A DNA stretch of 64,000 bases from Mayamaea pseudoterrestris. Lineage: Eukaryota. A program made the translations under genes and the position numbers. Positions 25,090 to 64,000 of the stretch are shown here, piece after piece (position 1 is the stretch's first letter; the number at the start of each line of letters is the position of its first letter). The notes beneath the pieces were generated by a model. That model did not search any database, was not told where the DNA came from, and saw only the letters and a list, made by a program, of their open reading frames with translations. The stretch is from assembly GCA_027923505.1 (NCBI GenBank), contig BROI01000001.1, positions 2,108,001 to 2,172,000 of the forward strand, given 5' to 3'.

Positions 25090-25399
25090 AAGCTCAAGGT
25101 ATAAGCATTTGAATAGGCATGGCAGCTGCTGGCTGAGACTGGTGACAAGTTATCACCAATCACATCGCAGTCCACGGAGACACCAGCCAGTACCTTATCT
25201 TCTAGCGAACCTGAAGAAAGGATGTAAGCACCATCTTGGCTTATTTTGGGCATACACATGGCTCAAGGCATGGGCATTTGAAAGGCATGGCAGCTGTTAC
25301 TGGCTGAGACTGGTGACAAGTTAACACCAATCACATTGCAGTTCACGTAGACACCGGCCACTTTTCTGTTGGGCACCTGAAATAAGGATGTTAGCACCA
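25090..25399. repeat. Satellite family A, ~2 diverged 169-bp units
   Basis: gctcaagg..gcatttgaa recurs at about 25092 and 25261. Both units carry gctgagactggtgacaagtt, shared with 47.9-48.8 kb and 60.4-64 kb. Confidence 0.85.
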
Positions 25400-25706
25400 A
25401 TCTCACCGCGTGTGTGTCCCCAAGGATAGCCAGAGGAGAATTCATGGAACAGACCTATTGGGGGGTAGTCTTTGAAGGCCTTACACTGGAGCAACCTGGA
25501 GCTTGTTTCTGTGTGGATCTTTGCCCTCCCAAACAACTGGTGCTACATGTGAGCCGGGAATGATTGTTATGCACCAATCTCACTGCATATAAGTCCCCAA
25601 GCATAGCCAGACCTGAAATCATGGGACAAGACTATTGGGGGTAGTCATTGAAGGCCACACACTGTAGCACCTTGTAGCTGATTACTGTGTGGATCTTTGC
25701 CCTCCA
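25394..25706. repeat. Satellite family B, ~1.8 units of 177 bp
   Basis: gcaccaatctcac at 25394 and 25571. ctattgggggtagtc and ctgtgtggatctttgccctcc each occur twice. Confidence 0.85.
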
Positions 25707-28700
25707 AAGTTGATCTATGTTCAAGCTCAGCGCAGTGGTCTGGCAGGCTCCAAGGCTACAGACAATCATTCCGGGAATTAAAAGATCAAACTCATGCAAC
25801 ATGAAAGTGATCTTGCAAGACTTGGGTTGCTCCTACAAGGAGCTCATGCATGCTGGAGCTATGATTTTCAAGCTCAGCGCAGTGGTCTGGCAGGCTCCAA
25901 GGCTACAGACAATCATTCCGGGAATCAAAAGATCAAACTCATGCAACATGAAAGTGACCTTGCAAGACTTGGCTGCTCCAACAAGGAGCTCATGCATGCT
26001 GTAATGCGCTCCACAAAGTTGATCTATGATCAAGCTCAGCACCTTGGTCAGACAAGCCCAAGGCTACAGATCCTCATTCCGGGAATCAAAAGATCAATCT
26101 CATGCAGCATGAAAGTAACCTTGCAAGACTTGGCTGCTGCAACAAGGAGCTCATGCATGCTGTAATGCGCTCCACAAAGTTGATCTATGATCAAGCTCAG
26201 CGCAGTGGTCTGGCAGGCTCCAAGGTTACAGACTATTATTCCGGGAATCAAAAGATCAAACTCATGCAACATGAAAGTGACCTTGCAAGACTTGGGTTGC
26301 TCCTACAAGGAGCTCATGCATGCTGTAATGCGCTCCACAAAGTTGATCTATGATCAAGCTCAGCTCAGCTCAGTGGTCTGGCAGGCTCCAAGGCTACAGA
26401 TCCTCATTCCAGGAATCAAAAGATCAATCTCATGCAACATGAAAGTGAACTTGCAAGATTTGGCTGCTCCAACAAGGAGCTCATGCATGCTGTAATGCGC
26501 TCCACAACGTTGATCTATGATCAAGCTCAGCGCAGTGGTCTGGCAGGCTCCAAGGCTACAGACAATCATTCCGGGAATCAAAAGATCAAACTCATGCAAC
26601 ATGAAAGTGACCTTGCAAGACTTGGGTTGCTCCTACAAGGAGCTCATGCATGCTGTAATGCGCTCCACAAAGTTGATCTATGATCAAGCTCAGCACCTTG
26701 GTCAGACAAGCCCAAGGCTACAGATCCTCATTCCGGGAATCAAAAGATCAATCTCATGCAACATGAAAGTGACCTTGCAAGACTTGGCTGCTCCAACAAG
26801 GAGCTCATGCATGCTGTAATGTGCTCCACAAAATTGATCTATGTTCAAGCTCAGCACCTTGGTCTGACAAGCCCAAGGCTACAGACAATCATTCCGGGAA
26901 TCATAAGATCAAACTCATGCAACATGAAAGTGACCTTGTAAGATTTGGCTGCTCCAACAAGGAGCTCGTGCATGCTGTAATGTGCTCCACAAACTTTATC
27001 TATGATCAAGCTCAGCGCAGTGGTCTGGCAGGCTCCAAGGCTACAGACAATCATTCCGGGAATCAAAGGATCAGTCTCATGCAACATGAAAGTGACCTTG
27101 TAAGACTTGGCTGCTCCAACAAGGAGCTCATGCATGCTGTTATGTGCTCCACAAAGTTGATCTATGATCAAGCTCAGCGCAGTGGTCTGGCAGGCTCCAA
27201 GGCCACAAACAATCATTCCGGGAATCAAAAGATCAAACTCATGCAACATGAAAGTGACCTTGCTGGCTGCTTCTACGAGGAGCTCATGCATGCTGTAATG
27301 TGCTCCACAAAGTTGATCTATGATCAAGCTCAGCTCAGCTCAGTGGTCTGGCAGGCTCCAAGGCTACAGACAATCATTCCGGGAAATAAAAGATCAATCT
27401 TGTGCAACATGAAAGTGACTTTGCAAAACTTAGGTTGCTCCTACAAGGAGCTCATGCATGCTGTAATGCGCTCCACAAAGTTGATCTATGATCAAGCTCA
27501 GCACCTTGGTCAGACAAGCCCAAGGCTACAGATCCTCATTCCGGGAATCAAAAGATCAATCTCATGCAACATGAAAGTGACCTTGCAAGACTTGGCTGCT
27601 CCAACAAGGAGCTCATGCATGCTGTAATGCGCTCCACATTGTTGATCTATGATCAAGCTCAGCGCAGTGGTCTGGCAGGCTCCAAGGCTACAGACAATCA
27701 TTCCGGGAATCAAAAGATCAAACTCATGCAACATGAAAGTGACCTTGCAAGACTTGGGTTGCTCCTACAAGGAGCTCATGCATGCTGTAATGCGCTCCAC
27801 AAAGTTGATCTATGATCAAGCTCAGCGCAGTGGTCTGGCAGGCTCCAAGGCTACAGACAATCATTCCGGGAATCAAAAGATCAATCTCATGCAACATGAA
27901 AGTGACCTTGCAAGACTTGGCTGCTCCAACAAGGAGCTCATGCATGCTGTAATGCGCTCCACAAAGTTGATCTATGATCAAGCTCAGCGCAGTGGTCTGG
28001 CAGGCTCCAAGGCTACAAACAATCATTCCGGGAATCAAAAGATCAATCTCATGCAACATGAAAGTGACCTTGCAAGACTTGGCTGCTCCAACAAGGAGCT
28101 CATGCATGCTGTAATGCGCTCCACAACGTTGATCTATGATCAAGCTCAGCGCAGTGGTCTGGCAGGCTCCAAGGCTACAGACAATCATTCCGGGAATCAA
28201 AAGATCAAACTCATGCAACATGGAAGTGACCTTGCAAGACTTGGCTGCTCCTACAAGGAGCTCATGCATGCTGTAATGCGCTCCACAAAGTTGATCTATG
28301 ATCAAGCTCAGCGCAGTGGTCTGGCAGGCTCCAAGGCTACAGACAATCATTCCGGGAATCAAAAGATCAATCTCATGCAACATGAAAGTGACCTTGCAAG
28401 ACTTAGATGCTCCAACAAGGAGCTCATGCATGCTGTAATGCGCTCCACAAAGTTGATCTATGATCAAGCTCAGCGCAGTGGTCTGGCAGGCTCCAAGGCT
28501 ACAGACAATCATTCCGGGAATCAAAAGATCAAACTCATGCAACATGGAAGTGACCTTGCAAGACTTGGCTGCTCCAACAAGGAGCTCATGCATGCTGTAA
28601 TGCGCTCCACAAAGTTGATCTATAATCAGATGGGCGGACGAGCCCAATGGCTACATCTAATAAAGATCAATTTCATGCAACATGAAAGTGACCTTGTAAG

Positions 28701-31700
28701 ACTTGGCTGCTCCAACAAGGAGCTCATGCATGCTGTAATGTGCTCCACAAAGTTTGATCTAAGATCAAGCTCAGCGCAGTGGTCTGGCAGGCTCCAAGGC
28801 TACAGACAACCATTCCGGGAATCAAAAGATCAAACTCATGCAACATGAAAGTGACCTTGCAAGACTTGGCTGCTCCAACAAGGAGCTCATGCATGCTGTA
28901 ATGCGCTCCACAAAGTTGATCTATGATCAAGCTCAGCGCAGTGGTCTGGCAGGCTCCAAGGCTACAGACAATCATTCCGGGAATCAAAAGATCCATCTCA
29001 TGCAACATGAAAGTGACCTTGCAAGACTTGGCTGCTCCTACAAGGAGCTCATGCATGCTGTAATGCGCTCCACAAAGTTGATCTATGATCAAGCTCAGCA
29101 CAGTGGTCTGGCAGGCTCCAAGGCTACAGACAATCATTCCGGGAATCAAAAGATCAAACTCATGCAACATGAAAGTGACCTTGCAAGACTTGGCTGCTCC
29201 TACAAGGAGCTCATGCATGCTGTAATGCGCTCCACAAAGTTGATCTATGATCAAGCTCAGCGCAGTGGTCTGGCAGGCTCCAAGGCTACAGACAATCATT
29301 CCGGGAATCAAAAGATCAATCTCATGCAACATGAAAGTGACCTTGCAAGACTTGGCTGCTCCAACAAGGAGCTCATGCATGCTGTAATGCGCTCCACAAA
29401 GTTGATCTATGATCAAGCTCAGTGCAGTGGTCTGGCAGGCTCCAAGGCTACAGACAATCATTCCGGGAATCAAAAGATCAACCTCATGCAACATGGAAGT
29501 GACCTTGCCAGACTTGGTTGCTCCAACAAGGAGCTCATGCATGCTGTAATGCGCTCCACAAAGTTGATCTATGATCAAGCTCAGCGCAGTGGTCTGGCAG
29601 GCTCCAAGGCTACAGACAATCATTCCGGGAATCAAAAGATCCATCTCAGGCAACATGGAAGTGACCTTGCAAGACTTGGCTGCTCCTACAAGGAGCTCAT
29701 GCATGCTGTAATGTGCTCCACAAAGTTGATCTATGATCAAGCTCAGCGCAGTGGTCTGGCAGGCTCCAAGGCTACAGACAATCATTCCGGGAAAAAAAGA
29801 TCAAAAGCTCAGCACAGTGGTCTGGCAGGCTCCAAGGCTACAGACAATCATTCCGGGAATCAAAAGATCAAACTCATGCAACATGAAAGTGACCTTGCAA
29901 GACTTGGCTGCTCCTACAAGGAGCTCATGCATGCTGTAATGCGCTCCACAAAGTTGATCTATGATCAAGCTCAGCGCAGTGGTCTGGCAGGCTCCAAGGC
30001 TACAGACAATCATTCCGGGAATCAAAAGATCAATCTCATGCAACATGAAAGTGACCTTGCAAGACTTGGCTGCTCCAACAAGGAGCTCATGCATGCTGTA
30101 ATGCGCTCCACAAAGTTGATCTATGATCAAGCTCAGTGCAGTGGTCTGGCAGGCTCCAAGGCTACAGACAATCATTCCGGGAATCAAAAGATCAACCTCA
30201 TGCAACATGGAAGTGACCTTGCCAGACTTGGTTGCTCCAACAAGGAGCTCATGCATGCTGTAATGCGCTCCACAAAGTTGATCTATGATCAAGCTCAGCG
30301 CAGTGGTCTGGCAGGCTCCAAGGCTACAGACAATCATTCCGGGAATCAAAAGATCCATCTCAGGCAACATGGAAGTGACCTTGCAAGACTTGGCTGCTCC
30401 TACAAGGAGCTCATGCATGCTGTAATGTGCTCCACAAAGTTGATCTATGATCAAGCTCAGCGCAGTGGTCTGGCAGGCTCCAAGGCTACAGACAATCATT
30501 CCGGGAAAAAAAGATCAATCTTGTGCAACATGAAAGTGACTTTGCAAAACTTAGGTTGCTCCTACAAGGAGCTCATGCATGCTATAATGCACTCCACAAA
30601 GTTGATCTATGATCAAGCTCAGCGCAGTGGTCTGGCAGGCTCCAAGGCTACAGACAATCATTCCGGGAATCAAAAGATCCATCTCATGCAACATGAAAGT
30701 GACCTTGCAAGACTTGGCTGCTCCAACAAGGAGCTCATGCATGCTGTAATGCGCTCCACAAAGTTGATCTATGATCAAGCTCAGCGCAGTGGTCTGGCAG
30801 GCTCCAAGGCTACAGACAATCATTCCGGGAATCAAAAGATCAATCTCATGCAACATGGAAGTGACCTTGCAAGACTTGGCTGCTCCAACAAGGAGCTCAT
30901 GCATGCTGTAATGCGCTCCACAAAGTTGATCTATGATCAAGCTCAGCGCAGTGGTCTGGCAGGCTCCAAGGCTACAGACAATCATTCCGGGAATCAAAAG
31001 ATCCATCTCAGGCAACATGGAAGTGACCTTGCAAGACTTGGCTGCTCCTACAAGGAGCTCATGCATGCTGTAATGCGCTCCACAAAGTTGATCTATGATC
31101 AAGCTCAGTGCAGTGGTCTGGCAGGCTCCAAGGCTACAGACAATCATTCCGGGAATCAAAAGATCAACCTCATGCAACATGGAAGTGACCTTGCCAGACT
31201 TGGTTGCTCCAACAAGGAGCTCATGCATGCTGTAATGCGCTCCACAGAGTGTTCTATGATCAAACTCAGCATCTCGGTCTGACTAGCCCAAGGCTACAGA
31301 CAATCATTCCGGGAATCAAAAGATCAAACTCATGCAACATGAAAGTGACCTTGCAAGACTTGGCTGCTCCAACAAGGAGCTCATGCATGCTGTAATGCGC
31401 TCCACAAAGTTGATCTATGATCAAGCTCAGCGCAGTGGTCTGGCAGGCTCCAAGGCTACAGACAATCATTCCGGGAATCAAAAGATCAATCTCATGCAAC
31501 ATGGAAGTGACCTTGCAAGACTTGGGTGCTCCAACAAGGAGCTCATGCATGCTGTAATGCGCTCCACAAAGTTGATCTATGATCAAGCTCAGCGCAGTGG
31601 TCTGGCAGGCTCCAAGGCTACAGACAATCATTCCGGGAATCAAAAGATCAAACTCATGCAACATGAAAGTGACCTTGCAAGACTTGGCTGCTCCAACAAG

Positions 31701-34700
31701 GAGCTCATGCATGCTGTAATGCGCTCCACAAAGTTGATCTATGATCAAGCTCAGCGCAGTGGTCTGGCAGGCTCCAAGGCTACAGACAATCATTCCGGGA
31801 ATCAAAAGATCAAACTCATGCAACATGGAAGTGACCTTGCAAGACTTGGCTGCTCCAACAAGGAGCTCATGCATGCTGTAATGCGCTCCACAAAGTTGAT
31901 CTATGATCAAGCTCAGCGCAGTGGTCTGGCAGGCTCCAAGGCTACAGACAATCATTCCGGGAATCAAAAGATCCATCTCATGCAACATGAAAGTGACCTT
32001 GCAAGACTTGGCTGCTCCTACAAGGAGCTCATGCATGCTGTAATGCGCTCCACAAAGTTGATCTATGATCAAGCTCAGCGCAGTGGTCTGGCAGGCTCCA
32101 AGGCTACAGACAATCATTCCGGGAATCAAAAGATCAAACTCATGCAACATGGAAGTGACCTTGCAAGACTTGGGTTGCTCCTACAAGGAGCTCATGCATG
32201 CTGTAATGCGCTTTACAAAGTTGATCTATGATCAAGCTCAGCGCAGTGGTCTGGCAGGCTCCAAGGCTACAGACAATCATTCCGGGAATCAAAAGATCAA
32301 ACTCATGCAACATGAAAGTGACCTTGCAAGACTTGGCTGCTCCAACAAGGAGCTCATGCATGCTGTAATGCGCTCCACAAAGTTGATCTATGATCAAGCT
32401 CAGCGCAGTGGTCTGGCAGGCTCCAAGGCTACAGACAATCATTCCGGGAATCAAAAGATCAAACTCATGCAACATGAAAGTGACCTTGCAAGACTTGGCT
32501 GCTCCAACAAGGAGCTCATGCATGCTGTAATGCGCTCCACAAAGTTGATCTATGATCAAGCTCAGTGCAGTGGTCTGGCAGGCTCCAAGGCTACAGACAA
32601 TCATTCCGGGAATCAAAAGATCAATCTCATGCAACATGAAAGTGACCTTGCAAGACTTGGCTGCTCCAACAAGGAGCTCATGCATGCTGTAATGCGCTCC
32701 ACACCATTGATCTATAATCAAGCTCAGCATCTTGGTCTGGCAGGCTCCAAGGCTACAGACAATCATTCCGGGAATCAAAAGATCAAACTCATGCAACATG
32801 GAAGTGACCTTGCAAGACTTGGCTGCTCCTACAAGGAGCTCATGCATGCTGTAATGCGCTCCACAAAGTTGATCTATGATCAAGCTCAGCGCAGTGGTCT
32901 GGCAGGCTCCAAGGCTACAGACAATCATTCCGGGAATCAAAAGATCAAACTCATGCAACATGAAAGTGACCTTGCAAGACTTGGCTGCTCCAACAAGGAG
33001 CTCATGCATGCTGTAATGCGCTCCACAAAGTTGATCTATGATCAAGCTCAGCACCTTGGTCTGACAAGCCCAAGGCTACAGATCCTCATTCCGGGAATCA
33101 AAAGATCAAACTCATGCAACATGAAAGTGACCTTGCAAGACTTGGCTGCTCCAACAAGGAGCTCATGCATGCTGTAATGCGCTCCACAAAGTTTATCTAT
33201 GATCAAGCTCAGCATCTTGGTCTGGCAGGCTCCAAGGCTACAGACAATCATTCCGGGAATCAAAAGATCAAACTCATGCAACATGAAAGTGATCTTGCAA
33301 GACTTGGCTGCTTCTACGAGGAGCTCATGCATGCTGTAATGTGCTCCACAAAGTTGATCTATGATCAAGCTCAGCGCAGTGGTCTGGCAGGCTCCAAGGC
33401 TACAGACAATCATTCCGGGAAATAAAAGATCCATCTCATGCAACATGAAAGTGACCTTGCAAGACTTGGCTGCTCCAACAAGGAGCTCATGCATGCTGTA
33501 ATGCGCTCCAGAAAGTTAATCTATGAACAAGCTCAGTGCAGTGGTCTGGCAGGCTCCAAGGCTACAGACAATCATTCCGGGAATCAAAAGATCAACCTCA
33601 TGCAACATGGAAGTGACCTTGCCAGACTTGGTTGCTCCAACAAGGAGCTCATGCATGCTGTAATGCGCTCCACAAAGTTGATCTATGATCAAGCTCAGCG
33701 CAGTGGTCAGACAAGCCCAAGGCTACTGATCCTCATACCGGGAATCAAAAGATCAAACTCATGCAACATGAAAGTTTTCTTGCAAGACTTGGCTGCTCCA
33801 ACAAGGAGCTCATGCATGCTGTAATGCGCTCCACAAAGTGGATCTATGATCAAGCTCAGCGCAGTGGTCTGGCAGGCTCCAAGGCTACAGACAATCATTC
33901 CGGGAATCAAAAGATCAAACTCATGCAACATGGAAGTGACCTTGCAAGACTTGGCTGCTCCTACAAGGAGCTCATGCATGCTGTAATGCGCTCCACAAAG
34001 TTGATCTATGATCAAGCTCAGCGCAGTGGTCTGGCAGGCTCCAAGGCTACAGACAATCATTCCGGGAATCAAAAGATCAAACTCATGCAACATGAAAGTG
34101 ACCTTGCAAGACTTGGCTGCTCCTACAAGGAGCTCATGCATGCTGTAATGCGCTCCACAAAGTTGATCTATGATCAAGCTCAGCGCAGTGGTCTGGCAGG
34201 CTCCAAGGCTACAGACAATCATTCCGGGAATCAAAAGATCCATCTCAGGCAACATGGAAGTGACCTTGCAAGACTTGGCTGCTCCTACAAGGAGCTCATG
34301 CATGCTGTAATGCGCTCCACAAAGTTGATCTATGATCAAGCTCAGCGCAGTGGTCTGGCAGGCTCCAAGGCTACAGACAATCATTCCGGGAATCAAAAGA
34401 TCAATCTCATGCAACATGGAAGTGACCTTGCAAGACTTGGCTGCTCCAACAAGGAGCTCATGCATGCTGTAATGCGCTCCACAAAGTTGATCTATGATCA
34501 AGCTCAGCGCAGTGGTCTGGCAGGCTCCAAGGCTACAGACAATCATTCCGGGAATCAAAAGATCCATCTCATGCAACATGAAAGTGACCTTGCAAGACTT
34601 GGCTGCTCCAACAAGGAGCTCTTTGATGCTGTAATGTGCTCCACAAAGTTAATCTATGATCAAGCTGAGCGCCTTGGCCTGGCAGGCTCCATGGCTACAG

Positions 34701-37700
34701 ACAATCATTCCGGGAATCAAAAGATCCATCTCATGCAACATGAAAGTGACCTTGCAAGACTTGGCTGCTCCAACAAGGAGCTCATGCATGCTGTAATGCG
34801 CTCCACAAAGTTGATCTATGATCAAGCTCAGCGCAGTGGTCTGGCAGGCTCCAAGGCTACAGACAATCATTCCGGGAATCAAAAGATCAAACTCATGCAA
34901 CATGGAAGTGACCTTGCAAGACTTGGCTGCTCCAACAAGGAGCTCATGCATGCTGTAATGCGCTCCACAAAGTTGATCTATGATCAAGCTCAGCGCAGTG
35001 GTCTGGCAGGCTCCAAGGCTACAGACAATCATTCCGGGAATCAAAAGATCCATCTCAGGCAACATGAAAGTGACCTTGCAAGACTTGGCTGCGGCAACAA
35101 GGAGCTCATGCATGCTGTAATGTGCTCCACAAAGTTGATCTATGATCAAGCTCAGCGCAGTGGTCTGGCAGGCTCCAAGGCTACAGACAATCATTCCGGG
35201 AATCAAAAGATCAAACTCATGCAACATGGAAGTGACCTTGCAAGACTTGGCTGCTCCAACAAGGAGCTCATGCATGCTGTAATGCGCTCCACAAAGTTGA
35301 TCTATGATCAAGCTCAGCGCAGTGGTCTGGCAGGCTCCAAGGCTACAGACAATCATTCCGGGAATCAAAAGATCAATCTCATGCAACATGGAAGTGACCT
35401 TGCAAGACTTGGCTGCTCCAACAAGGAGCTCATGCATGCTGTAATGCGCTCCACAAAGTTGATCTATGATCAAGCTCAGCGCAGTGGTCTGGCAGGCTCC
35501 AAGGCTACAGACAATCATTCCGGGAATCAAAAGATCAAACTCATGCAACATGGAAGTGACCTTGCAAGACTTGGCTGCTCCAACAAGGAGCTCATGCATG
35601 CTGTAATGCGCTCCACCAAGTGGATCTATGATCAAGCTCAGCGCAGTGGTCTGGCAGGCTCCAAGGCTACAGACAATCATTCCGGGAATCAAAAGATCAA
35701 ACTCATGCAACATGGAAGTGACCTTGCAAGACTTGGCTGCTCCAACAAGGAGCTCATGCATGCTGTAATGCGCTCCACAAAGTTGATCTATGATCAAGCT
35801 CAGCGCAGTGGTCTGGCAGGCTCCAAGGCTACAGACAATCATTCCGGGAATCAAAAGATCAAACTCATGCAACATGGAAGTGACCTTGCAAGACTTGGCT
35901 GCTCCAACAAGGAGCTTATGCATGCTGTAATGCGCTCCACAAAGTTGATCTATGATCAAGCTCAGCGCAGTGGTCTGGCAGGCTCCAAGGCTACAGACAA
36001 TCATTCCGGGAATCAAAAGATCAAACTCATGCAACATGAAAGTGACCTTGCAAGACTTGGCTGCTGCAACAAGGAGCTCATGCATGCTGTAATGCGCTCC
36101 ACAAAGTTGATCTATGATCAAGCTCAGCGCAGTGGTCTGGCAGGCTCCAAGGCTACAGACAATCATTCCGGGAATCAAAAGATCAAACTCATGCAACATG
36201 GAAGTGACCTTGCAAGACTTGGCTGCTCCAACAAGGAGCTCATGCATGCTGTAATGCGCTCCACAAAGTTGATCTATGATCAAGCTCAGCGCAGTGGTCT
36301 GGCAGGCTCCAAGGCTACAGACAATCATTCCGGGAATCAAAAGATCCATCTCAGGCAACATGGAAGTGACCTTGCAAGACTTGGCTGCTCCTACAAGGAG
36401 CTCATGCATGCTGTAATGCGCTCCACCAAGTGGATCTATGATCAAGCTCAGCGCAGTGGTCTGGCAGGCTCCAAGGCTACAGACAATCATTCCGGGAATC
36501 AAAAGATCAAACTCATGCAACATGGAAGTGACCTTGCAAGACTTGGCTGCTCCAACAAGGAGCTCATGCATGCTGTAATGCGCTCCACAAAGTGGATCTA
36601 TGATCAAGCTCAGCGCAGTGGTCTGGCAGGCTCCAAGGCTACAGACAATCATTCCGGGAATCAAAAGATCAAACTCATGCAACATGGAAGTGACCTTGCA
36701 AGACTTGGCTGCTCCAACAAGGAGCTCATGCATGCTGTAATGCGCTCCACAAAGTTGATCTATGATCAAGCTCAGCGCAGTGGTCTGGCAGGCTCCAAGG
36801 CTACAGACAATCATTCCGGGAATCAAAAGATCAAACTCATGCAACATGGAAGTGACCTTGCAAGACTTGGCTGCTCCAACAAGGAGCTCATGCATGCTGT
36901 AATGCGCTCCACCAAGTTGATCTATGATCAAGCTCAGCGCAGTGGTCTGGCAGGCTCCAAGGCTACAGACAATCATTCCGGGAATCAAAAGATCCATCTC
37001 AGGCAATATGAAGGTGACCTTGCAAGACTTGGCTGCTCCAACAAGGAGCTTATGCATGCTGTAATGCGCTCCACAAAGTTGATCTATGATCAAGCTCAGC
37101 GCAGTGGTCTGGCAGGCTCCAAGGCTACAGACAATCATTCCGGGAATCAAAAGATCAAACTCATGCAACATGGAAGTGACCTTGCAAGACTTGGCTGCTC
37201 CAACAAGGAGCTCATGCATGCTGTAATGCGCTCCACCAAGTGGATCTATGATCAAGCTCAGCGCAGTGGTCTGGCAGGCTCCAAGGCTACAGACAATCAT
37301 TCCGGGAATCAAAAGATCAAACTCATGCAACATGGAAGTGACCTTGCAAGACTTGGCTGCTCCAACAAGGAGCTCATGCATGCTGTAATGCGCTCCACAA
37401 AGTTGATCTATGATCAAGCTCAGCGCAGTGGTCTGGCAGGCTCCAAGGCTACAGACAATCATTCCGGGAATCAAAAGATCAAACTCATGCAACATGGAAG
37501 TGACCTTGCAAGACTTGGCTGCTCCTACAAGGAGCTCATGCATGCTGTAATGCGCTCCACCAAGTGGATCTATGATCAAGCTCAGCGCAGTGGTCTGGCA
37601 GGCTCCAAGGCTACAGACAATCATTCCGGGAATCAAAAGATCAAACTCATGCAACATGGAAGTGACCTTGCAAGACTTGGGTGCTCCAACAAGGAGCTCA

Positions 37701-48820: not shown

Positions 48821-49085
48821 ACACGGCTCTGTGTGACCTGCTACTGCTGTTAGACCTAGTCTGACTGGTACTCAGGGAAGAACAATAACGCTTCCACACA
48901 ATCCGTTTCGACGAGGCTGCGCCGAGCAGCATCAATCGTCCATGATTTTATATCTAGATATTGTTCCTACATCAAATAGAAAAGGAGTAGTCTCACTGGA
49001 GTGCAGCAGCTGTAAAGGTAGAATTGGCCTCTTTTTCAAACTCGATTCGTGGCCGTCGGCATTCGTCACTTGACACTCGACAAGG

Positions 49086-52012: not shown

Positions 52013-52314
52013 CTTGGTGACGCTATATCTTTGAGTGCAGCGCGATTGAAAGGACTTTTCATTAGAAAGGATCGCGGTGGATGCACCCGCATCTTCTTTC
52101 GACGCCCATAGCTAACTTGTTTAGCTAAACTAGTAGCAAAAAGACAGCTTGCACATGCAGAGCTATGTCGAACTATCATATGTATCGACAGATGAACCTC
52201 ACCTCTGCAGGGAGTTTATTTCATCACTGCTTTGAACTATGCCAGTAGCCATCATCAAAAGTTTGAAGCATACCAGTAACCGGATTGACAAAGAAGATTT
52301 TCACGCCTCAAGTA

Positions 52315-55300
52315 GCAAAAACCCATGCTGAACCCAACCCCGGTCATTTTCCTGGAGGGATTGTAGGTCAAAATTTGAATGGATTGCACATCTTGCATCT
52401 TTAAACCGTGCCTAGCAACCGCAGAGACTCATATTGAAGCAGGCTGGCCCGTGGCTATGGCTACTGAGTGTGTTTGTGTTTTAAAAGTTGAAACCCATGC
52501 TGAAACTAACCCCAGTCATTTTCCTGGAGGGTTTGTAGGTATAAATTTGAATAGATTGCACATCCTGCATCTTTAAACATGCCTAGCAACCGCAGAGACT
52601 CATATTGAAGCAGGCTGGCTCATGACCATGGCTATTGAGTGTGTTTGTATTTGAGTAGCTGAAACCATTGTTGAACCCAACCCCAGTTATTTAACTGGAG
52701 GGTTTGAAATGGATTGCACATCCTGCATCCTCTATGCATGCCTAGCAACCGCAGAAGCTCAGATTGAAGCTGGCTGGCACATGGCTATGGCTATTGAGTG
52801 TGTAAATATTTGAGTAGCTGGACCCATGCCAAACCCAACCCTGGTCATTTTACTGGAGGAGTTGTAGGTATACCATGGAATGGATTGCACATCCTGCATC
52901 CTTTATGCATGCCTAGCAACCGCAGTGACTCATTTTGAAGCTGGATGGCCTATGGCTATGGCTATTGACTTTGAGTGTGTTTGAGTAGCTGGACCCATGC
53001 CGAACCCAACCCTGGTCATTTTACTGGAGGGTTTGATGGTAAACCATGGAATGGATTGCACATCCTGCATCCTTAATCCACGCCTAGCAACCGCAGAGAC
53101 TCATATTGAAGCTGGATGGCCCATGGCTATGGCTATTGAGTGTGTTTTTGAATAGCTGAAACCCATGTGCCTGCCAGCAACCACCAAACCCCACCCAACC
53201 CCGGTCATTTTACTGGAGGGTTTGTAGGTATACCATTGAATGGATTGCACATCCTACATTCTATATGCATGCCTAGCAACCGCAGAGACTTATATTGAAG
53301 CAGGCTGGCCCATGGCTATGGCTATTGACTGTGAGTGTGTTTGAGTAGCTGATGCCAGCCACCACAAACCCCACCCAACCCCGGTCATTTTACTGGAGGG
53401 TGTGAAGGTACATCGTTGAAGAAATTGCACATCCTACAACATTATGCATGCCTAGCAACCGCAGAGACTCATATTGAAGCGGGCTGGCCCGTGGCTGTGG
53501 ATATTGAGTTTGTTTGTATTTGAGAAGCTGAAACCCATGCTGAACCCAACCCCGGTTATTTTGCTGAAGGGTCTGTAGGTATAAATTTGAATGGATTGCA
53601 CATCCTGCAGTTTTTATGCATGCCTTACAACTGCAGAGACTCATATTGAAGCAGGCTGGCTCATGGCTATGGCTATTGAGTGTGTTTGTATTTGAGTAGC
53701 TGGACCCATGCCAAACCCAACCCCAGTCATTTTACTGGAGGGTTAGTAGGTATAAATGTTAATGGATTGCACATCCTGCATCCATAATCCACGCCCAGCA
53801 GCCGCAGAGACTCATATTGAAGCAGGCTGGCTCATGGCTATGGCTATTGAGTGTGTCTGTGTTTTAAAAGTTAAAACCCATGCTGAAACTAACCCTGGTC
53901 ATTTTCCTGGAGGGTTTGTAGGTATGCCATTGAATAAATTGCACATCCTGCATCTTTAAACCATGCCTAGCAACCGCAGAGACATATATTGAAGCAGGCT
54001 GGCCCATGGCTATGGCTATTGACTGTGAGTGTGTTTGAGTAGCTGAAACCATTGCTTAACCCAACCCCGGTCATTTTACTGGAGGGTTTGAAGGTATACC
54101 ATTGAATGGATTGCACATCCTGCATCCTTTATGCATGCCTAGCAACCGCAGAGACTCATATTGAAGCTGGCTCGCCCATGACTCTGGCTATTGAGTGTGA
54201 TTATATTTGAGTAGCTGGACCCATGCCGAACCCATCCCTGGTCATTTTACTGGAGGGTGTGAAGGTATACCATTGAATGGATTGCTCATCATGGATCCTT
54301 TATGCATGCCTAGCAACCGCAGAGACTCATATTGAAGCTGGATGGCCCATGGCCGTGGCTATCGAGTGTGTTTGTATTGGAGTAGCTGAAACCATTGCTG
54401 AACCCAACCCCGGTCATTTTACTGGAGGGTGTGAAGGTATACCATTGAACGAATTGCTCTTCTTGATCCTTTTTGCATGCCTAGCAACCGCAGAGACTCA
54501 TATTGAAGCTAGATGGCCCTTGGCTGTGGCTATTGAGTGTGTTTGTATTTGAGTAGCTGGACCCATGCCGAACCCAACCCCGGTCAATTTACTGGAGGGT
54601 GTGAAGGTATACCGTTGAAGAAATTGCACATCCTACATCCTTTATGCATGCCTAGCAACCGCAGAGACTCGTATTGAAGCGGGCTGGCCCATGGCTATGG
54701 CTATTGACTTTGAGTGTGTTTGAGTAGCTGGACCCATGCCAAACCCAACCCCGGTCATTTTACTGGAGGGTTTGAAGGTCCATTGAATGGATTGCCCATC
54801 CTGCATCGTTTATGCATGCCTAGCAGCCGCAGAGACTCATATTGAAGCAGGCTGGCACATGCCTATGGCTATTGAGTGTGTTTATATTTGAGTAGCTGGA
54901 CCCATGCCGAACCCAACCCCGGTCATTCCTCAAGGGTTTGAAGGTATACTATGGAATGGATTGCACATCCTACATTCTTTATGCATGCCTAGCAACCGCA
55001 GAGACTCTGATTAAAGCTGGCTGGCCCGTGGCTAGTGCTATATAGTGTGTTTATATTTGAGTAGCTGGACCCATGCTGAAACTAACCCCGGTCATTTTCC
55101 TGTAGGGGTTGTAGGTATACCATTGAATGGATTGCACATCCTGCATCTTTAAACCATGCCTAGCAACCGCAGAGACTTATATTGAAGCAGGGTGGCCCAT
55201 GGCTATGGCTATTGACTGTGAGTGTGTTTGAGTAGCTGATGCCAGAACCCCACCTAACCCCGGTCATTTTACTGGAGGGTGTGAAGGTATACTGTTGAAG

Positions 55301-58300
55301 AATTGCACATCCTACATCCTTTATGCATGCCTAGCAACCGCAGAGACTCATATTGAAGCAGGCTGGCCCGTGGCTGTGGATATTGAGTTAGTTTGTATTT
55401 GAGAAGCTGAAACCCATGCTGAATCCAACCCCGGTTTTTTTTTTGCTGGAGGGTCTGTAGGTATAAATTTGAATGGATTGCACATCCTGCATCATGTATG
55501 CACGCGTAGCAACTCCAGAGACTCATATTGAAGCTAGATGGCCCATGGCTGTGGCTATTGAGTGTGTTTGTATTTGAGTAGCTGGACCCATGCCGAACCC
55601 AACCCCGGTCATTTTACTGGAGGGTTTGATGGTATACCATGGAATGGATTGCGCATCCTGCATCTATTTTTGGTAATGCCTAGCAACCGCAGTGACTCAT
55701 ATTAAAGCAGGCTGGCTCGAGGCTATGGCTATTGAGTGTGTTTGTATTTGAGTAGCTGGACCCATGCTGAACCCAACCCCGGTCATTTTACTGGAGGGTT
55801 TGAAGGTATACCATGGAATGGATTGCACATCCTGCATCCTTTATGCATGCCTAGCAACCGCAGAGACTCATATTGAAGCAGGCTGGCTCATGGCTATGGC
55901 TATTGAGTGTGTTTGTATTTGAATAGCTGAAACCATTGCTGAACCCAACCCCAGTCATTTTACTGGAGGGTTTGAAGGTATACCATTGAATGGATTGCAC
56001 ATCCTGCATCCTTTATGCATGCCTAGCAACCGCAGAGACTCATATTGAAGCAGGCTGGCTCATGGCTATGGCTATTGAGTGTGTTTGTATTTGAATAACT
56101 GAAACCATTGCTTAACCCAACCCCGGTCATTTTACTGGAGGGTTTGAAGGTATACCATTGAATGGATTGCACATCCTGCATCCTTTATGCATGCCTAGCA
56201 CCCGCAGAGACTCATATTAAAGCTGGCTGGCTCATGGCTATGGCTATTGAGTGTGTTTAGATTTGAATAGCTTGACCCATGCCGAACCCAACCCCGGTCA
56301 TTTTACTGGAGGGTGAAGGTATACCATTGAATGGATTGCACATCCTGCATCCTTTATGCATGCCTAGCAACCGCAGAGACTCATATTGAAGCAGGCTGGC
56401 TCATGGCTATGGCTATTGAGTGTGTTTGTATTTGAATAACTGAAACCATTGCTGAACCCAACCCCGGTCATTTTACTGGAGGGTTTGAAGGTATACCATT
56501 GAATGGATTGCACATCCTGCATCCTTTATGCATGCCTAGCAACCGCAGAGACTCATATTGAAGCAGGCTGGCTCATGGCTATGGCTATTGAGTGTGTTTG
56601 TATTTGAATAGCTGGACCCATTGCTGAACCCAACCCCGGTCATTTTACTGGAGGGTTTGAAGGTATACCATTGAATGGATTGCACATCCTGCATCCTTTA
56701 TGCATGCCTAGCAACCGCAGAGACTCATATTGAAGCAGGCTGGCTCATGGCTATGGCTATTGAGTGTGTTTGTATTTGAATAGCTGAAACCATTGCTGAA
56801 CCCAACCCCGGTCATTTTACTGGAGGGTTTGAAGGTATACCATTGAATGGATTGCACATCCTGCATCCTTTATGCATGCCTAGCAACCGCAGAGACTCAT
56901 ATTGAAGCAGGCTGGCTCATGGCTATGGCTATTGAGTGTGTTTGTATTTGAATAGCTGAAACCATTGCCGAACCCAACCCCGAGTCATTTTACTGGAGGG
57001 TTTGAAGGTATACCATTGAATGGATTGCACATCCTGCATCCTTTATGCATGCCTAGCAACCGCAGAGACTCATATTGAAGCAGGCTGGCTCATGGCTATG
57101 GCTATTGAGTGTGTTTGTATTTGAATAGCTGAAACCATTGCTGAACCCAACCCTGGTCATTTTACTGGAGGGTGTGAAGGTATACCATTGAATGGATTGC
57201 ACATCCTACATCCTTTATGCATGCCTAGCAACCGCAGAGACTCGTATTGAAGCAGGCTGGCTCATGGCTATGGCTATTGAGTGTGTTTGTATTTGAATAG
57301 CTGAAACCATTGCTGAACCCAACCCCGGTCATTTTACTGGAGGGTGTGAAGGTATACCATTGAATGGATTGCACATCCTGCATCCTTTATGCATGCCTAG
57401 CAACCGCAGAGACTCATATTGAAGCAGGCTGGCTCATGGCTATGGCTATTGAGTGTGTTTGTATTTGAGTAGCTGGACCCATGCCGAACCCAACCCCGGT
57501 CATTTTACTGGAGGGTTTGAAGGTATACCATTGAATGGATTGCACATCCTGCATCCTTTATGCATGCCTAGCAACCGCAGAGACTCATATTGAAGCAGGC
57601 TGGCTCATGGCTATGGCTATTGAGTGTGTTTGTATTTGAATAGCTGAAACCATTGCTGAACCCAACCCCGGTCATTTTACTGGAGGGTTTGAAGGTATAC
57701 CATTGAATGGATTGCACATCCTGCATCCTTTATGCATGCCTAGCAACCGCAGAGACTCATATTGAAGCAGGCTGGCTCATGGCTATGGCTATTGAGTGTG
57801 TTTATATTTAATAGCTGAAACCATGCTGCTGAACCACCCAACCCCGGTCATTTTACTGGAGGGTGTGAAGGTATACCATTGAATGGATTGCACATCCTGC
57901 ATCCTTTATGCATGCCTAGCAACCGCAGAGACTCATATTGAAGCAGGCTGGCTCATGGCTATGGCTATTGAGTGTGTTTGTATTTGAATAACTGTAACCA
58001 TTGCTGAACCCAACCCCGGTCATTTTACTGGAGGGTTTGAAGGTATATTATGGAATGGATTGCACATCCTGCATCCTTTATGCATGCCTAGCAACCGCAG
58101 AGACTCATATTGAAGCAGGCTGGCTCATGGCTATGGCTATTGAGTGTGTTTGTATTTGAGTAGCTTGACCCATGCCAAACCCAACCCCGGTCATTTTACT
58201 GGAGGGTTTGAAGGTATACCATTGAATGGATTGCACATCCTGCATCCTTTATGCATGCCTAGCAACCGCAGAGACTCATATTGAAGCAGGCTGGCACATG

Positions 58301-60141
58301 GCTATGGCTATTGATTGTGTTTATATTTGAAAAGCTAAAACCATAGCTGAACACAACCTTGGTCATTTTACTGGAGGGTTTGAAGGTATACCATTGAATA
58401 AATTGAACATGCTGCATCTTTTATGCATGTCTAGCAACTGCAGAGACTCATATTGAAGCAGGCTGGCTCATGGCTATGGCTATTGAGTGTGTTTGTATTT
58501 GAATAGCTGAAACCATTGCTGAACCCAACCCCAGTCATTTTACTGGAGGGTTTGAAGGTATACCATGGAATGGATTGCACATCCTGCATCCTTTATGCAT
58601 GCCTAGCAACCGCAGAGACTCATTTTGAAGCTGGATGGCCCATGGCTATGGCTATTGACTGTGAGTGTGTTTGATTAGCTGATGCCAGCCACCACAAACC
58701 CCACCCAACCCCGGTTATTTTACTGGAGGGTGTGAAGGTATACCGTTGAAGAAATTGCACATCCTACATCCTTTATGCATGCCTAGCAACCGCAGAGACT
58801 CGTATTGAAGCGGGCTGGCCCGTGGCTGTGGAAATTGAGTTTGTTTGTATTTGAAAAGCTGAACCCATGCTGAACCCAACCCCGGTTATTTTGCTGGAGG
58901 GTCTGTAGGTATAAATTTGAATGGATTGCACATCCTGCATTTCTTAAGCATGCCTAGCAACCGCAGAGACTCATATTGAAGCAGGCTGGCTCATGGCTAT
59001 GGCTGTTGAGTGTGTTTGAATTTGAGTTTTGAGTAGTGGGACCCATGCCTCACCCAACCCCGGTCATTTTACTGGAGGGTTTGTCGGTATAAATTTTAAT
59101 GGATTGCACATCTTGCATCCTTAATCGACGCCTAGCAGTTGCAGAGACTCATATTAAAGCAGGCTAAATTATGGCTATGGCTATTGAGTGTGTTTGTATC
59201 TGAATAGCTGAAACCATTGTTGAACCCATTCCCGGAACTTTTACTGGAGGGTTTGAAGGTATACCATTGAATGGATTGCACATCCTGCATCCTTTATGCA
59301 TGCCTAGCAGCCGCAGAGACTCAGATTGAAGCTGGCTGGCACATGGCTATGGCTATTGAGTGTGTTTGAATAGCTGAAACCCATGCTGCCTGTCAGCCAC
59401 CAATAAACCCCACCCAACCCCAGTCATTTTACTGGGGGGCGTGAAGGTATATCATTGAATGGATTGCTCATCCTGGATCCTTTTTGCATGCCTAGCAACC
59501 GCAGAGACTCATATTGAAGCTGGATGGCCCATGGCTGAGGCTATTGAGTGTGTTTGTATTTGAGTAGCTGGACCCATGCCAAACCCAACCCCGGTCATTT
59601 AACTGGAGGGTTTGAAGGTATACTATGGAATGGATTGCACATCTTGCATCCTTTATGCATGCCTAGCAGCCGCAGAGACTCATTTTGAAGCTGGATGGCC
59701 CATGGCTATGGCTATTGACTGTGAGTGTGTTTGAGTAGCTGGACCCATGCCGAACCCAACCCCGGTCATTCCTCAAGGGTTTGAAGGTATACTATGGAAT
59801 GGATTGCACATCTTGCATCCTTTATGCATGCCTAGCAACCGCTGATACTCATTTTGAAGCTGGATGGCCCATGGCTATGGCTATTGACTGTGAGTGTGTT
59901 TGAGTAGCTGGACCCATGCCAAACCCAACCCTGGTCATTTTCCTCGAGGGTTTGAAGGTATACCATGGAATGGATTGCACATCCTGCATCCTTTATGCAT
60001 GCCTAGCAACCGCAGAGACTCAGATTGAAGCTGGCTGGCACATGGCTATGGCTATTGATTGTGTTTATATTTGAATAGCTAAAACCATTGCTGAACCCAA
60101 CCCTGGTCATTTTACTGGAGGGTTTGAAGGTATACCATTGA
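52315..60141. repeat. Satellite family E, 172-bp unit, ~45 copies
   Basis: Unit ...gaacccaaccccggtcattttactggagggtttgaaggtataccattgaatggattgcacatcctgcatcctttatgcatgcctagcaaccgcagagactcatattgaagcaggctggctcatggctatggctattgagtgtgtttgtatttgaatagct... Markers at 55929/56101 and 56442/56614/56786 are 172 bp apart. Confidence 0.97.
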
Positions 60142-60400
60142 AATGAGTCAGGAAAACATGTCCAGGGTATGCCATTGACAGGTGCAGAGTCTCAAATGGT
60201 GCAAAAAGGACTGCCTGGAGGCTGACACCATGGGTACGGCCTCCACTGTGGGTATGGCCAACACCACAAGTGTTCTTACCTGTCAAATGCCCCATGCCCT
60301 GGCCACCCAAATACCCAATGAGTCAGGCAAAACCTGTCCAGGGTATGCCATTGACAGGTGCAGAGTCTCAAATGGTGCAAAAAGGACTGCCTGGAGGCTG
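60142..60400 (-). repeat. Satellite family C in inverted orientation, ~1.5 units
   Basis: gagtcagg..ccagggtatgccattgacaggtgcagagtctcaaatgg is the reverse complement of 47.1-47.2 kb. aatgagtcagg occurs at 60142 and 60317. Confidence 0.9.
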
Positions 60401-63400
60401 AGCGTGAATAACAATGTTGGCATCATTCTGGTGTATTTTGGGCACCTACAGGGCTTGCTGTAGGGGCGTTGGCATCTGCGGGCTGAGACTGGTGACAAGT
60501 TGTCACCAAATACATTGCCATCCCCTCAGACACCAGCCAAGCCTACTATCTTGTAGCGCAGCCTGAATAATGATGGTGGCACCATTCTGGTATAATTTGG
60601 GCACCTACAGAGCTTGCTGTAGGGGCGTTTGAATGTCATGGCATCTGTGGGCTGAGACTGGTGACTAGTTGTCACCAAATACATTGCCATCCCCAGAGAC
60701 ACCAGCCAAGCCTACCATCTTGTAGCGCAGCCTGAATAATGATGATGGCATCATTCTGGTGTATTTTGGGCACCTACAGGGCTTGCTGTAGGGGCGTTTT
60801 GAATGTCATGTCATCTGCGGGCTGAGACTGGTGACAAGTTGTCACCAAATACATTGCCATCCCCTGAGACACCAGCCAAGCCTACCATGTTTTAGCGCAG
60901 CCTAAATAATGATGGTGGCACCATTCTGGTGTATTTTAAGCACCTACAGAGCTTGCTGTAGGGGCGTTTGAATGTCACGGCATCTGCGGGCTGAGACTGG
61001 TGACAAGTTGTCACCAAATACATTGCCATCCCCTGAGACACCAGCCAAGCCTACCATCTTGTAGCGCAGCCTGAATAATGATGTTGGCACCATTCTGGTG
61101 TATTTTGGCACCTACAGGGCCTGCTGTAGGGGCGTTTGAATGTCACGGCATCTGCGGGCTGAGACTGGTGACAAGTTGTCACCAAATACATTGCCATCCC
61201 CTGAGACACCAGCCAAGCCTACCATCTTGTAGCGCAGCCTGAATAATGATGTTGTCACCATTCTGGTGTATTTTTGGCACCTACAGAGCTTGATGTAGGG
61301 GCGTTTGAATGTCCCGGCATCTGCTGGCTGAGACTGGTGACAAGTTGTCACCAAATACATTGCCATCCCCTGAGACACCAGCCAAGCCTACCATCTTGTC
61401 GCGCAGCCTGAATAATGATGTTGGCACCATTCTGGTGTATTTTTGGCACCTACAGGGCTTGCTGTAGGGGCATTTGAATGTCCCGGCATCTGCCGGCTGA
61501 GACTGGTGACAACTTGTCACCAAATACATTGCCATCCCCTGAGACACCAGCCAAGCCTACCATCTTGTAGCGCAGCCTGAATAATGATGTTGGCACCATT
61601 CTGGTGTATTTTGGGCACCTACAGGGCTTGCTGTAGGGGCGTTTGAATGTCCCAGCATCTGCGGGCTGAGACTGGTGACAAGTTGTCACCAAATACATTG
61701 CCATCCCCTGAGACACCAGCCAAGCCTACCATCTTGTAGCGCAGCTTGATTAATGATGTTAACACCATTGTGGTGCATTTTGGGCACCTACAGGGCCTGC
61801 TGTAGGGGCGTTTGAATGTCCCGGCATCTGCGGGCTGAGACTGGTGACAAGTTGTCACCAAATACATTGCCATCCCCTGAGACACCAGCCAAGCCTACCA
61901 TCTTGTAGCGCAGCCTGAATAATGATGTTGGCACCATTCTGGTGTATTTTGAGCACCTACAGGGCTTGCTGTAGGGGCGTTTGAATGTCCCGGCATCTGC
62001 GGGCTGAGACTGGTGACAAGTTGTCACCAAATACATTGCCATCCCCTGAGACACCAGCCAAGCCTACCATCTTGTAGCGCAGCCTGAATAATGATGTTGG
62101 CATCATTCTGGTGTATTTTGGGCACCTACAGGGCTTGCTGTAGGGGCGTTTGAATATCCCAGCATCTGCGGGTTGAGACTGGTGACAAGTTGTCACCAAA
62201 TATATTGCCATCCCCTGAGACACCAGCCAAGCCTACCATCTTGTAGCGCAGCCTAAATAATGATGTTGGCACCATTCTGGTGTATTTTTGGCACCTACAG
62301 GGCTTGCTGTAGGGGCATTTGAAAGTCCTGGTATCTGCGGGCTGAGACTGGTGACAAGTTGTCACCAAATACATTGCCATCCCCTGAGACACCAGCCAAG
62401 CCTACCATCTTGTAGCGCAGCCTGAATAATGATGTTGGCACCCTTCTGGTGTATTTTGGGCACCTACAGGGCTTGCTGTAGGGGCGTTTGAATGTCCCAG
62501 CATCTGCGGGCTGAGACTGGTGACAAGTTGTCACCAAATACATTGCCATCCCCTGAGACACCAGCCAAGCCTACCATCTTGTAGCGCAGCCTTAATAATG
62601 ATGTTAACACCATTCTGGTGTATTTTGGGCACCTACAGGGCCTGCTGTAGGGGCGTTTGAATGTCCCGGCATCTGCGGGCTGAGACTGGTGACAAGTTGT
62701 CACCAAATACATTGCCATCCCCTGAGACACCAGCCAAGCCTACCATCTTGTAGCGCAGCCTGAATAATGATGTTGGCACCATTCTGGTGTATTTTGGGCA
62801 CCTACAGGGCTTGCTGTAGGGGCGTTTGAATGTCCCGGCATCTGCGGGCTGAGACTGGTGACAAGTTGTCACCAAATACATTGCCATCCCCTGAGACACC
62901 AGCCAAGCCTACCATCTTGTAGCGCAGCCTGAATAATGATGTTGGCACCATTCTGGTGTATTTTGGGCACCTACAGGGCTTGCTGTAGGGGCGTTTGAAT
63001 GTCCCGGCATCTGCGGGCTGAGACTGGTGACAAGTTGTCACCAAATACATTGCCATCCCCTGAGACACCAGCCAAGCCTACCATCTTGTAGCGCAGCCTG
63101 AATAATGATGTTGGCACCATTCTGGTGTATTTTGGGCACCTACAGGGCTTGCTGTAGGGGCGTTTGAATGTCCCCGCATCTGCTGGCTGAGACTGGTGAC
63201 AAGTTGTCACCAAATACATTGCCATCCCCTGAGACACCAGCCAAGCCTACCATCTTGTAGCGCAGCCTGAATAATGATGTTGGCACCATTCTGGTGTATT
63301 TTGGGCACCTACAGGGCTTGCTGTAGGGGCGTTTGAAAGTCCCGGCATCTGCGGGCTGAGACTGGTGACAAGTTGTCACCAAATACATTGCCATCCCCTG

Positions 63401-64000
63401 AGACACCAGCCAAGCCTACCATCTTGTAGCGCAGCCTGAATAATGATGTTGGCACCATTCTGGTGTATTTCTGGCACCTATAGGGCCTGCTGTAGGGGCA
63501 TTTGAATGTCCCGGCATCTGCGGGCTGAGACTGGTGACAAGTTGTCACCAAATACATTGCCATCCCCTGAGACACCAGCCAAGCCTACCATCTTGTAGCG
63601 CAGCCTGAATAATGATGTTGGCACCATTCTGGTGTATTTTGGGCACCTACAGGGCTTGCTGTAGGGGCGTTTGAATGTCACGGCATCTGCGGGCTGAGAC
63701 TGGTGACAAGTTGTCACCAAATACATTGCCATCCCCTGAGACACCAGCCAAGCCTACCATCTTGTAGCGCAGCCTGAATAATGATGTTGGCACCATTCTG
63801 GTGTATTTTGGGCACCTACAGGGCCTGCTGTAGGGGCGTTTGAATGTCACGGCATCTGCGGGCTGAGACTGGTGACAAGTTGTCACCAAATACATTGCCA
63901 TCCCCTGAGACACCAGCCAAGCCTACCATCTTGTAGCGCAGCCTGAATAATGATGTTGGCACCATTCTGGTGTATTTTGGGCACCTACAGGGCTTGCTGT
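60400..64000. repeat. Satellite family A, homogeneous 169-bp array (~21 copies), continuing beyond the window
   Basis: Near-identical 88-aa ORFs recur every 169 bp (61112, 61281, ...). Each unit contains gctgagactggtgacaagttgtcacca. Confidence 0.97.

What the first reader, a model, noticed from the sequence alone, without database searches (positions are those of the whole stretch)
25090..64000. Modular satellite-mosaic blocks: six repeat families reused in different order and orientation in two neighbouring blocks
Seen: block 1 is A-B-S162(x~130)-B-C-D-A and block 2 is E(x~45)-inverted C-A(x>20). Family A occurs at three sites in the same orientation and brackets block 1 on both sides. Family C occurs in both blocks in opposite orientations. 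In each block different modules are amplified while the others stay at about 1.5-6 copies. Five of the units are 158-182 bp (about one nucleosome) and D is 348 bp (about two). The blocks sit directly against ordinary housekeeping genes. Inference: this is a dispersed, recombining library of satellite modules that travels as a unit and expands locally. It could be a non-autonomous mobile element with internal tandem repeats (Helitron/Helentron-like elements are known to seed satellites) or a satellite-type centromere/pericentromere. The latter would contrast with the low-GC, non-satellite centromeres described in Phaeodactylum.
Basis: partly seen in the sequence, partly recalled or inferred. 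Interest (0 to 1): 0.8.

Follow-up and report, generated by a model that had tools for sequence, protein, structure and literature searches.

The report
Helitron-seeded satellite mosaics in diatom
A diatom chromosome carries patchworks of unrelated tandem repeats; the first patchwork begins at the end of a rolling-circle transposon that elsewhere in the genome carries one of these repeats whole, which shows one way satellite DNA gets scattered among genes, while a centromere role remains untested.

Summary
The mosaic is real: block 1 is A-B-S162(~129)-B-C-D-A; block 2 is E(45)-inverted C-A(63, running past the window). K abuts B at one fixed junction at about 12 places. RepHel partners with the HLE2 marker DUF6570 are in the genome. 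The blocks do not travel as units: order is unique, block 1 has no M 3' end, block 2 has no terminus, and 30 of 43 sampled islands show none. Best reading: Helitron-seeded, CpG-depleted satellite islands, later patched with other satellites and expanded locally. At least 82 clusters on 31 contigs exclude one centromere per chromosome; CENH3 is untested. The scan noted such islands before on other contigs; none of the notes I saw reported the carrier link.

The parts
23022..24509 (+). Flanking host gene, FAD-linked oxidase (D-2-hydroxyglutarate dehydrogenase-like)
   Evidence: PF01565 + PF02913; named relatives are diatoms: Fistulifera, Nitzschia, Cylindrotheca
24623..25019 (-). K: non-autonomous HLE2/Helentron-type element; this copy lacks the first 3 nt of its 5' end and has a 9-nt duplication near its 3' end
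   Evidence: 67 matches genome-wide; sharp ends, 11-bp subterminal inverted repeat, TT flanks; both ends bracket a 2373-codon RepHel frame at G000:C25:84147-92793
25020..25041 (+). 22-bp spacer; its first 9 nt equal the last 9 nt of a variant M 3' end (possible remnant, unproven)
   Evidence: compared with L130 and L135
25042..25091 (+). 5' terminus of rolling-circle family M, running into A through a short shared stretch
   Evidence: 80-90% identical to the 5' ends of the RepHel-bearing elements at C5:436646 and C8:397912
25086..25388 (+). Satellite A (169 bp), 1.8 units, the variant typical of M-borne arrays
25389..25704 (+). Satellite B (~176 bp), 1.8 units
25705..46686 (+). Satellite S162, about 129 units, 97.4% mean identity to consensus; noisy stretch 45005-45153
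46687..46830 (+). Satellite B, 0.8 unit (does not resume in register across S162)
46831..47291 (+). Satellite C (181 bp), 2.5 units with a 49-bp duplication
47292..47872 (+). Satellite D (348 bp, old dimer with palindromes), 1.7 units
47873..48824 (+). Satellite A (158-169 bp), 5.8 units, not the M-type variant; no M 3' end follows
49086..50096 (+). Host gene between the blocks, S4 + pseudouridine synthase
   Evidence: PF01479, PF00849
50326..51180 (-). Open frame of 284 aa between the blocks, no Pfam match
52311..60141 (+). Satellite E (172 bp), about 45 units
60142..60400 (-). Satellite C, 1.4 units, inverted; 94-97% identical to large C arrays on other contigs (recent templated patch)
60401..64000 (+). 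Satellite A (169 bp), 98.6% homogeneous; continues to C1:2179035, where a copia LTR begins

Best explanation
These are silent satellite islands built in two steps. Step 1, seeding: a rolling-circle HLE2 transposon (family M) took up satellite A internally and copied M-A elements to new gene-flanking sites, using a RepHel protein supplied in trans. Block 1 is the 5' part of such an element, whose 3' end has been lost or displaced. A second HLE2 family (K) joined satellite B once, and that K-B piece also spread. Step 2, remodelling: other satellites were patched into breaks in the resident array from templates elsewhere in the genome, single modules then expanded locally by unequal exchange, and LTR elements inserted. 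Shown: the termini, the partners, the orientation-specific link of M with A and of K with B, and CpG loss. Inferred: that RepHel moved the arrays, the repair route of step 2, current methylation, and the origin of block 2, which has no terminus.
For: M 5' ends: 6 real sites; 2 head RepHel-domain frames (C5, C8) and 4 of the other 4 lead into A in the same orientation (window, C1:1303401, C4:651060, C18:514563). M 3' ends: 17 sites, control 0; 11 have satellite within 1.5 kb upstream (9 with A on the element's strand), 0 downstream; three of those nine are mosaics (B-A, A-C-B-A, D-A). Complete elements: C1:1303401-1312016 (5' part, 7.6 kb A, 545-bp 3' part) and C4 (14.9 kb, 13.8 kb continuous A). 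One A variant is seen in 7 of 8 scorable M-linked arrays, including the window's left A, and in 2 of 22 others (Fisher p = 1.3e-4). T precedes 6 of 6 M 5' ends and follows 17 of 17 3' ends. DUF6570 + Helitron_like_N in all 4 RepHel frames, PIF1 in 3. K next to an array in 10 of 19 B-selected islands versus 1 of 23 others (p = 8e-4; not independent events). CpG o/e is 0.15-0.31 in all window modules versus 1.08 in genes, and CpG transitions are 3-6 times more frequent than other C/G transitions in the three window arrays.
Against: 30 of 43 islands chosen by satellite sequence show no K or M piece (many had one end outside the fetched DNA). Block 1 has no M 3' end, block 2 none of either kind. 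M has only a 7-bp inverted repeat and mostly no 3' hairpin. The M variant of A is a small minority: 39 exact copies of a 38-mer at 11 loci, 5 of them beside a known M end and 6 not (the probe came from M-linked arrays), against 7,340 A motifs. No empty site was seen. Microhomology at junctions is not above simulation (7 of 65 with 9 nt or more, versus 8%). In one of 7 arrays tested (A inside the C4 element) CpG transitions were not raised. Satellites could have been patched into resident M copies instead of being carried by them.
Confidence: 0.68

Rival explanations
1. Transposons are passengers. Satellites spread only by repair-mediated copying or circle reintegration into any silent DNA, and M and K ends sit beside them because they are landing pads in the same silent patches.
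For: Most islands have no terminus (30 of 43). The inverted C in block 2 is a 259-bp piece 94-97% identical to distant arrays. 15 of 65 junctions carry 15 nt or more of filler versus 0% in simulation (the simulation had no indels). Copia LTRs and a TIR element also insert into arrays. A similar route is described for Rsp-like into 1.688 (PMC7403614, passages). 14 of the 14 best K loci have no satellite within 1.5 kb.
Against: It does not predict satellite always inside and never outside M ends (11 upstream versus 0 downstream), A on the element's strand in 9 of 9 3' ends and 4 of 4 5' ends, or an M-linked A variant.
Confidence: 0.2
2. The islands are centromere units, either one large block per chromosome or many dispersed units as in the repeat-based holocentromeres of Rhynchospora. 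This is compatible with Helitron seeding.
For: Eight of 11 units are 162-183 bp and the other three (347, 371, 511 bp) show internal dimer or trimer similarity. A and D carry palindromes longer than in 100 of 100 shuffles. Arrays of 1-20 kb lie among genes, as do ~20-kb Tyba arrays spread by Helitron TCR1 (10.64898/2026.01.17.700053, passages).
Against: At least 82 clusters on 31 contigs rule out one per chromosome. No single family marks all islands. GC is 45-52%, while Phaeodactylum centromeres rest on under 33% GC (10.1101/096016, passages). 9 of 11 units have no unusual palindrome. There is no chromatin data.
Confidence: 0.1
3. The mosaic order is partly an artefact of long-read assembly across similar repeats.
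For: Noisy stretches inside arrays (window 45005-45153, L019, L039). The far end of block 2's island shares at least 9 kb of gene-bearing flank with C15 at 95-98%, and the two copies diverge inside the satellite.
Against: Short-read contigs span the three left junctions exactly; identical junctions recur on different contigs.
Confidence: 0.07

Closest known systems
Cg_HINE non-autonomous Helentrons of Crassostrea gigas (PMC7492417; 12 passages including part of the abstract)
   Same: Dispersed short satellite arrays inside HLE2-type termini, fixed array orientation, TT target, no target duplication.
   Different: Cg_HINEs carry one, exceptionally two, arrays and nearly all arrays keep both flanks. 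Here up to five families in seven segments follow one terminus, arrays inside intact elements reach 13.8 kb, most islands have lost or never had termini, and coding partners with the same ends are in the genome.
DINE-1/HINE and Helentron/Helitron2 (PMC4067079, passages); HLE2 and HLE2-reverse (PMC11417382, passages)
   Same: K has an 11-bp subterminal inverted repeat at the very 5' end and about 22 nt from the 3' end, T-rich flanks, and a partner with DUF6570-RepHel.
   Different: No endonuclease domain was found in the partners. K's 3' stem is weak (3 bp). M has a 5' stem-loop, a 7-bp inverted repeat and mostly no 3' hairpin.
Tyba arrays and Helitron TCR1 in Rhynchospora holocentromeres (10.64898/2026.01.17.700053, passages)
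   Same: Many kb-scale satellite arrays among genes, partly spread by a Helitron.
   Different: Tyba is one family with shown CENH3 binding; here there are at least 11 unrelated families and no chromatin evidence.
Rsp-like inserted into 1.688 clusters in Drosophila (PMC7403614, passages)
   Same: New satellites appear inside older dispersed clusters, with junctions that carry filler.
   Different: Microhomology was not above simulation here, many more families mix, and no eccDNA data exist.

Membership tests
HLE2 (Helentron/Helitron2), family K | Subterminal inverted repeats of 11 bp or more | tested here: met
   Perfect 11-bp pair in the C25 element and its derivatives
HLE2 (Helentron/Helitron2), family K | Stem-loop behind the 3' repeat | tested here: inconclusive
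   Only a 3-bp stem, -1.7 kcal/mol
HLE2 (Helentron/Helitron2), family K | Insertion between T and T | tested here: met
   TT before 34 of 40 5'-motif hits, T after 34 of 45 3'-motif hits; overlapping loci and tandem copies not removed
HLE2 (Helentron/Helitron2), family K | Coding partner with RepHel and DUF6570 sharing both ends | tested here: met
   C25:84147-92793, 2373-codon frame: DUF6570, Helitron_like_N, PIF1, Peptidase_C48
HLE2, family M | RepHel with DUF6570 behind the same 5' end | tested here: met
   C5 frame of 1931 aa with PIF1; C8 frame truncated at 790 aa
HLE2, family M | Insertion between T and T, sharp ends | tested here: met
   6 of 6 5' ends and 17 of 17 3' ends
HLE2, family M | 12-16-nt inverted repeats and 3' stem-loop (canonical form) | tested here: not met
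   7-bp repeat; stem-loop at the 5' end (-3.8 kcal/mol in C5), none at the C8 3' end; closer to the HLE2-reverse description
Helentron in the strict sense | Endonuclease fused to RepHel | tested here: not met
   No endonuclease family in Pfam scans of 4 frames
HLE1 (canonical Helitron) | 3' hairpin plus CTRR, A-T target | tested here: not met
   None of the 17 M 3' ends or the aligned K ends finishes in CTRR
HINE with central repeats (block 1 as one intact element) | Both termini present around the arrays | tested here: not met
   5' end present; no 3' end in the window or in C1:2172001-2222000
HINE with central repeats (block 1 as one intact element) | Empty site or insertion polymorphism | not testable with these tools
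   The block exceeds the 20-kb limit for laying reads; no related genome is held
Satellite centromere (mono- or holocentric) | CENH3 occupancy | not testable with these tools
   No chromatin data
Satellite centromere (monocentric) | One locus per chromosome | tested here: not met
   At least 82 clusters on 31 contigs, 8 on C1 (hand-collected lower bound from the search listings)

The most novel reading that the evidence does not exclude
The islands are Helitron-dispersed centromere units: a diatom with a repeat-based, multi-family holocentromere (or polycentromere), in which RepHel seeds new units and any nucleosome-length satellite can serve.
Probability: 0.07. Interest if true: 0.92.

Novelty: new variant of a known kind. 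Interest (0 to 1): 0.55.

Why it matters
It gives a compact, gene-dense genome in which the carrier, its coding partner, intact carrier-plus-satellite elements and decayed multi-family mosaics can all be seen together, so the transposon-to-satellite route can be tested directly (empty sites, circles). Family A alone is about 1.2 Mb, or 4% of the assembly (7,340 x 169 bp). My searches found no report of satellite families or satellite-carrying Helitrons in diatoms. The shared unit length of 11 unrelated families is unexplained and points to chromatin constraint.

Tried and rejected
Shared termini at the first-chosen flanks (24900-25100, 48821-49000, 52100-52310): no match in the first 13 loci; the left terminus only appeared through read depth and a wider query. 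The right flank of block 1 and the left flank of block 2 matched nothing in the loci held. A CTAG at about 48855 has no partner in other loci and was rejected as a Helitron end. S162 as a protein repeat: frames of 1998 and 1666 aa on the two strands follow from 162 = 54 codons; no Pfam stretch passed. Microhomology-driven junctions: not above simulation. Fixed breakpoint phases for whole blocks: phases are scattered. Two motif hits were dropped as chance before counting M 5' ends: C5:974866 and C26:289443. Termini for the fourth RepHel (C12): none found. Metagenome scan with an A 25-mer: 0 hits. No RNA holder was listed, so expression was not assessed. Sequence look-up in earlier findings with K + M: nothing. 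Term search in PMC9724779, a paper on the species named in note e1-7561499: 0 hits for satellite, tandem repeat, helitron, centromer, rolling (main text only; supplements not seen).

Full report
Setting. The window is G000:C1:2108001-2172000 of a 30.6-Mb assembly in 41 contigs. The flanking gene's named relatives are diatoms.

Observation. Block 2's A array runs on to about 63 units and ends at a copia LTR; further A, D and B arrays and copia copies follow to C1:2212822. The S162 count is soft because of a noisy stretch and exact internal duplications.

A genome-wide library. A has 7,340 exact motif matches. S162, B, C and D each occur on several other contigs, and E was met on C2 and C33. Five more families turned up in fetched loci: 371, 173, 174, 511 and 168 bp. 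Eight of the 11 units are 162-183 bp; the 347-, 371- and 511-bp units show internal similarity at about half or a third of their length. Coordinates collected by hand from the listings give at least 82 clusters on 31 contigs, 8 on C1. Module order differs from island to island. All window modules are CpG-poor (0.15-0.31 versus 1.08 in genes), and CpG sites mutate faster in 6 of 7 arrays tested; long-standing methylation is the inference.

Read depth showed that the flank at about 24630-25100 is itself repeated. It holds two transposon ends. K (24623-25019, minus strand) is a ~380-bp dispersed element with sharp ends, an 11-bp subterminal inverted repeat and TT flanks, sometimes in head-to-tail runs. 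Its two ends bracket a 2373-codon frame with DUF6570, Helitron_like_N, PIF1 and a Ulp1 protease on C25. DUF6570 is described as an HLE2 marker (PMC11417382, passages). K meets B at one fixed position at about 12 places on 10 or more contigs, counting one duplicated pair once, and forms K-B-K composites with unique flanks on C3 and C15. In the window K is not at that junction; it lies outside the M end, so here it may simply be a neighbour.

The second end (25042-25091) is the 5' terminus of family M. It also heads the RepHel elements on C5 and C8. Of 6 real 5' ends, the 4 that do not head RepHel all lead into A on the same strand (two chance hits dropped). Of 17 3' ends, 11 have satellite within 1.5 kb upstream, 6 have none, and none has satellite downstream; several are mosaics. 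Two elements are complete, with 7.6 and 13.8 kb of A inside. No A was found inside the C8 element, which was fetched whole, so A was taken up rather than derived from M. The window's left A carries a variant seen in 7 of 8 M-linked arrays and 2 of 22 others, and its best matches are M-linked arrays; the right A and block 2's A lack it. Genome-wide, an exact probe for that variant hits 11 loci, 5 beside known M ends and 6 not.

Limits. Block 1 has no M 3' end and block 2 no terminus. Of 43 islands picked by satellite sequence, 13 show a K or M piece and 30 do not, though many ends lay outside the fetched DNA. Only 1 of the window's 8 satellite junctions recurs elsewhere. Some shared junctions between contigs belong to duplications that include flanking genes (C1/C15, C3/C18, C8/C18) and were not counted as independent. 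Junction overlaps are not longer than in a simulation, while unassigned filler is common. So the blocks are not mobile units; they are seeded and then remodelled in place.

Mechanism. Most likely (0.68): RepHel copies M-A and K-B pieces to T-T sites between genes; the arrays become methylated; breaks in them are repaired from other satellite templates, adding short modules such as the inverted C that is 94-97% identical to distant arrays; unequal exchange amplifies one module per site; LTR elements insert. The rivals are passenger transposons (0.2), centromere units (0.1) and assembly joins (0.07).

Comparison and novelty. Helentron-borne satellite arrays are known in oyster (PMC7492417, passages) and Drosophila (PMC4067079, passages), and Helitron-spread centromeric arrays in Rhynchospora (10.64898/2026.01.17.700053, passages). 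K passes most HLE2 tests; M works like an HLE2 but fails the canonical repeat-length and 3' hairpin tests; block 1 is not an intact HINE. Searches listed no paper on diatom satellite families or their carriers; subscription journals and supplements were not seen. The scan has 133 notes on such islands in this genome, of which I saw 8, and 6 Helitron notes, all seen; none of these links the satellites to Helitron ends. Verdict: new variant of a known kind, interest 0.55.

Noticed in passing
G000:C5:402345-436646 (L089, L090, L120, L124) and C8:397912-411029 (L093, L121): M 5' and 3' ends in matching orientation bracket 34 kb on C5 and 13.1 kb on C8, with shared internal genes. These may be the 33-kb and 13-kb Helitron islands of notes e1-7504473 and e1-7504815 (not verified); if so the termini favour one giant element on C5.
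   Followed up: partly
L043:823-9878 versus G000:C15:285001-293992 (L063, L142): At least 9 kb of gene-bearing flank is shared at 95-98% between C1 and C15, and the two copies part inside the satellite island: a rearrangement, haplotype difference or misassembly at an island.
   Followed up: partly
L011:7036 to L014:5704 (C1:2179036-2207704): Copia-type elements with a 328-bp LTR, two in tandem sharing an LTR, inserted into A arrays; the same LTR abuts D on C7 and lies near K on C5.
   Followed up: partly
L032:6002-7065, L060:1688-2774, L042:1577-2648: A 1.06-kb non-coding element with terminal inverted repeats; one copy sits inside a D array.
   Followed up: no
L061:2709-8222 (C3:747709-753222): A large inverted duplication of an A-B-K unit, with a further direct copy.
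   Followed up: no
L091-L092 (C12:207853-220278): A fourth RepHel frame (1823 aa) lies about 1.2 kb from an H-D-B-H satellite island; no termini were found.
   Followed up: partly
window 25108-25203: Summed short-read contig depth at the A motif is over 10,000 times that of the flanking gene in 3 runs; not a copy number, but a hint that arrays are collapsed in the assembly.
   Followed up: no
window 38200-44196 (+) and 39037-44037 (-): S162 is open on both strands, giving spurious frames of 1998 and 1666 aa that gene callers may annotate.
   Followed up: yes
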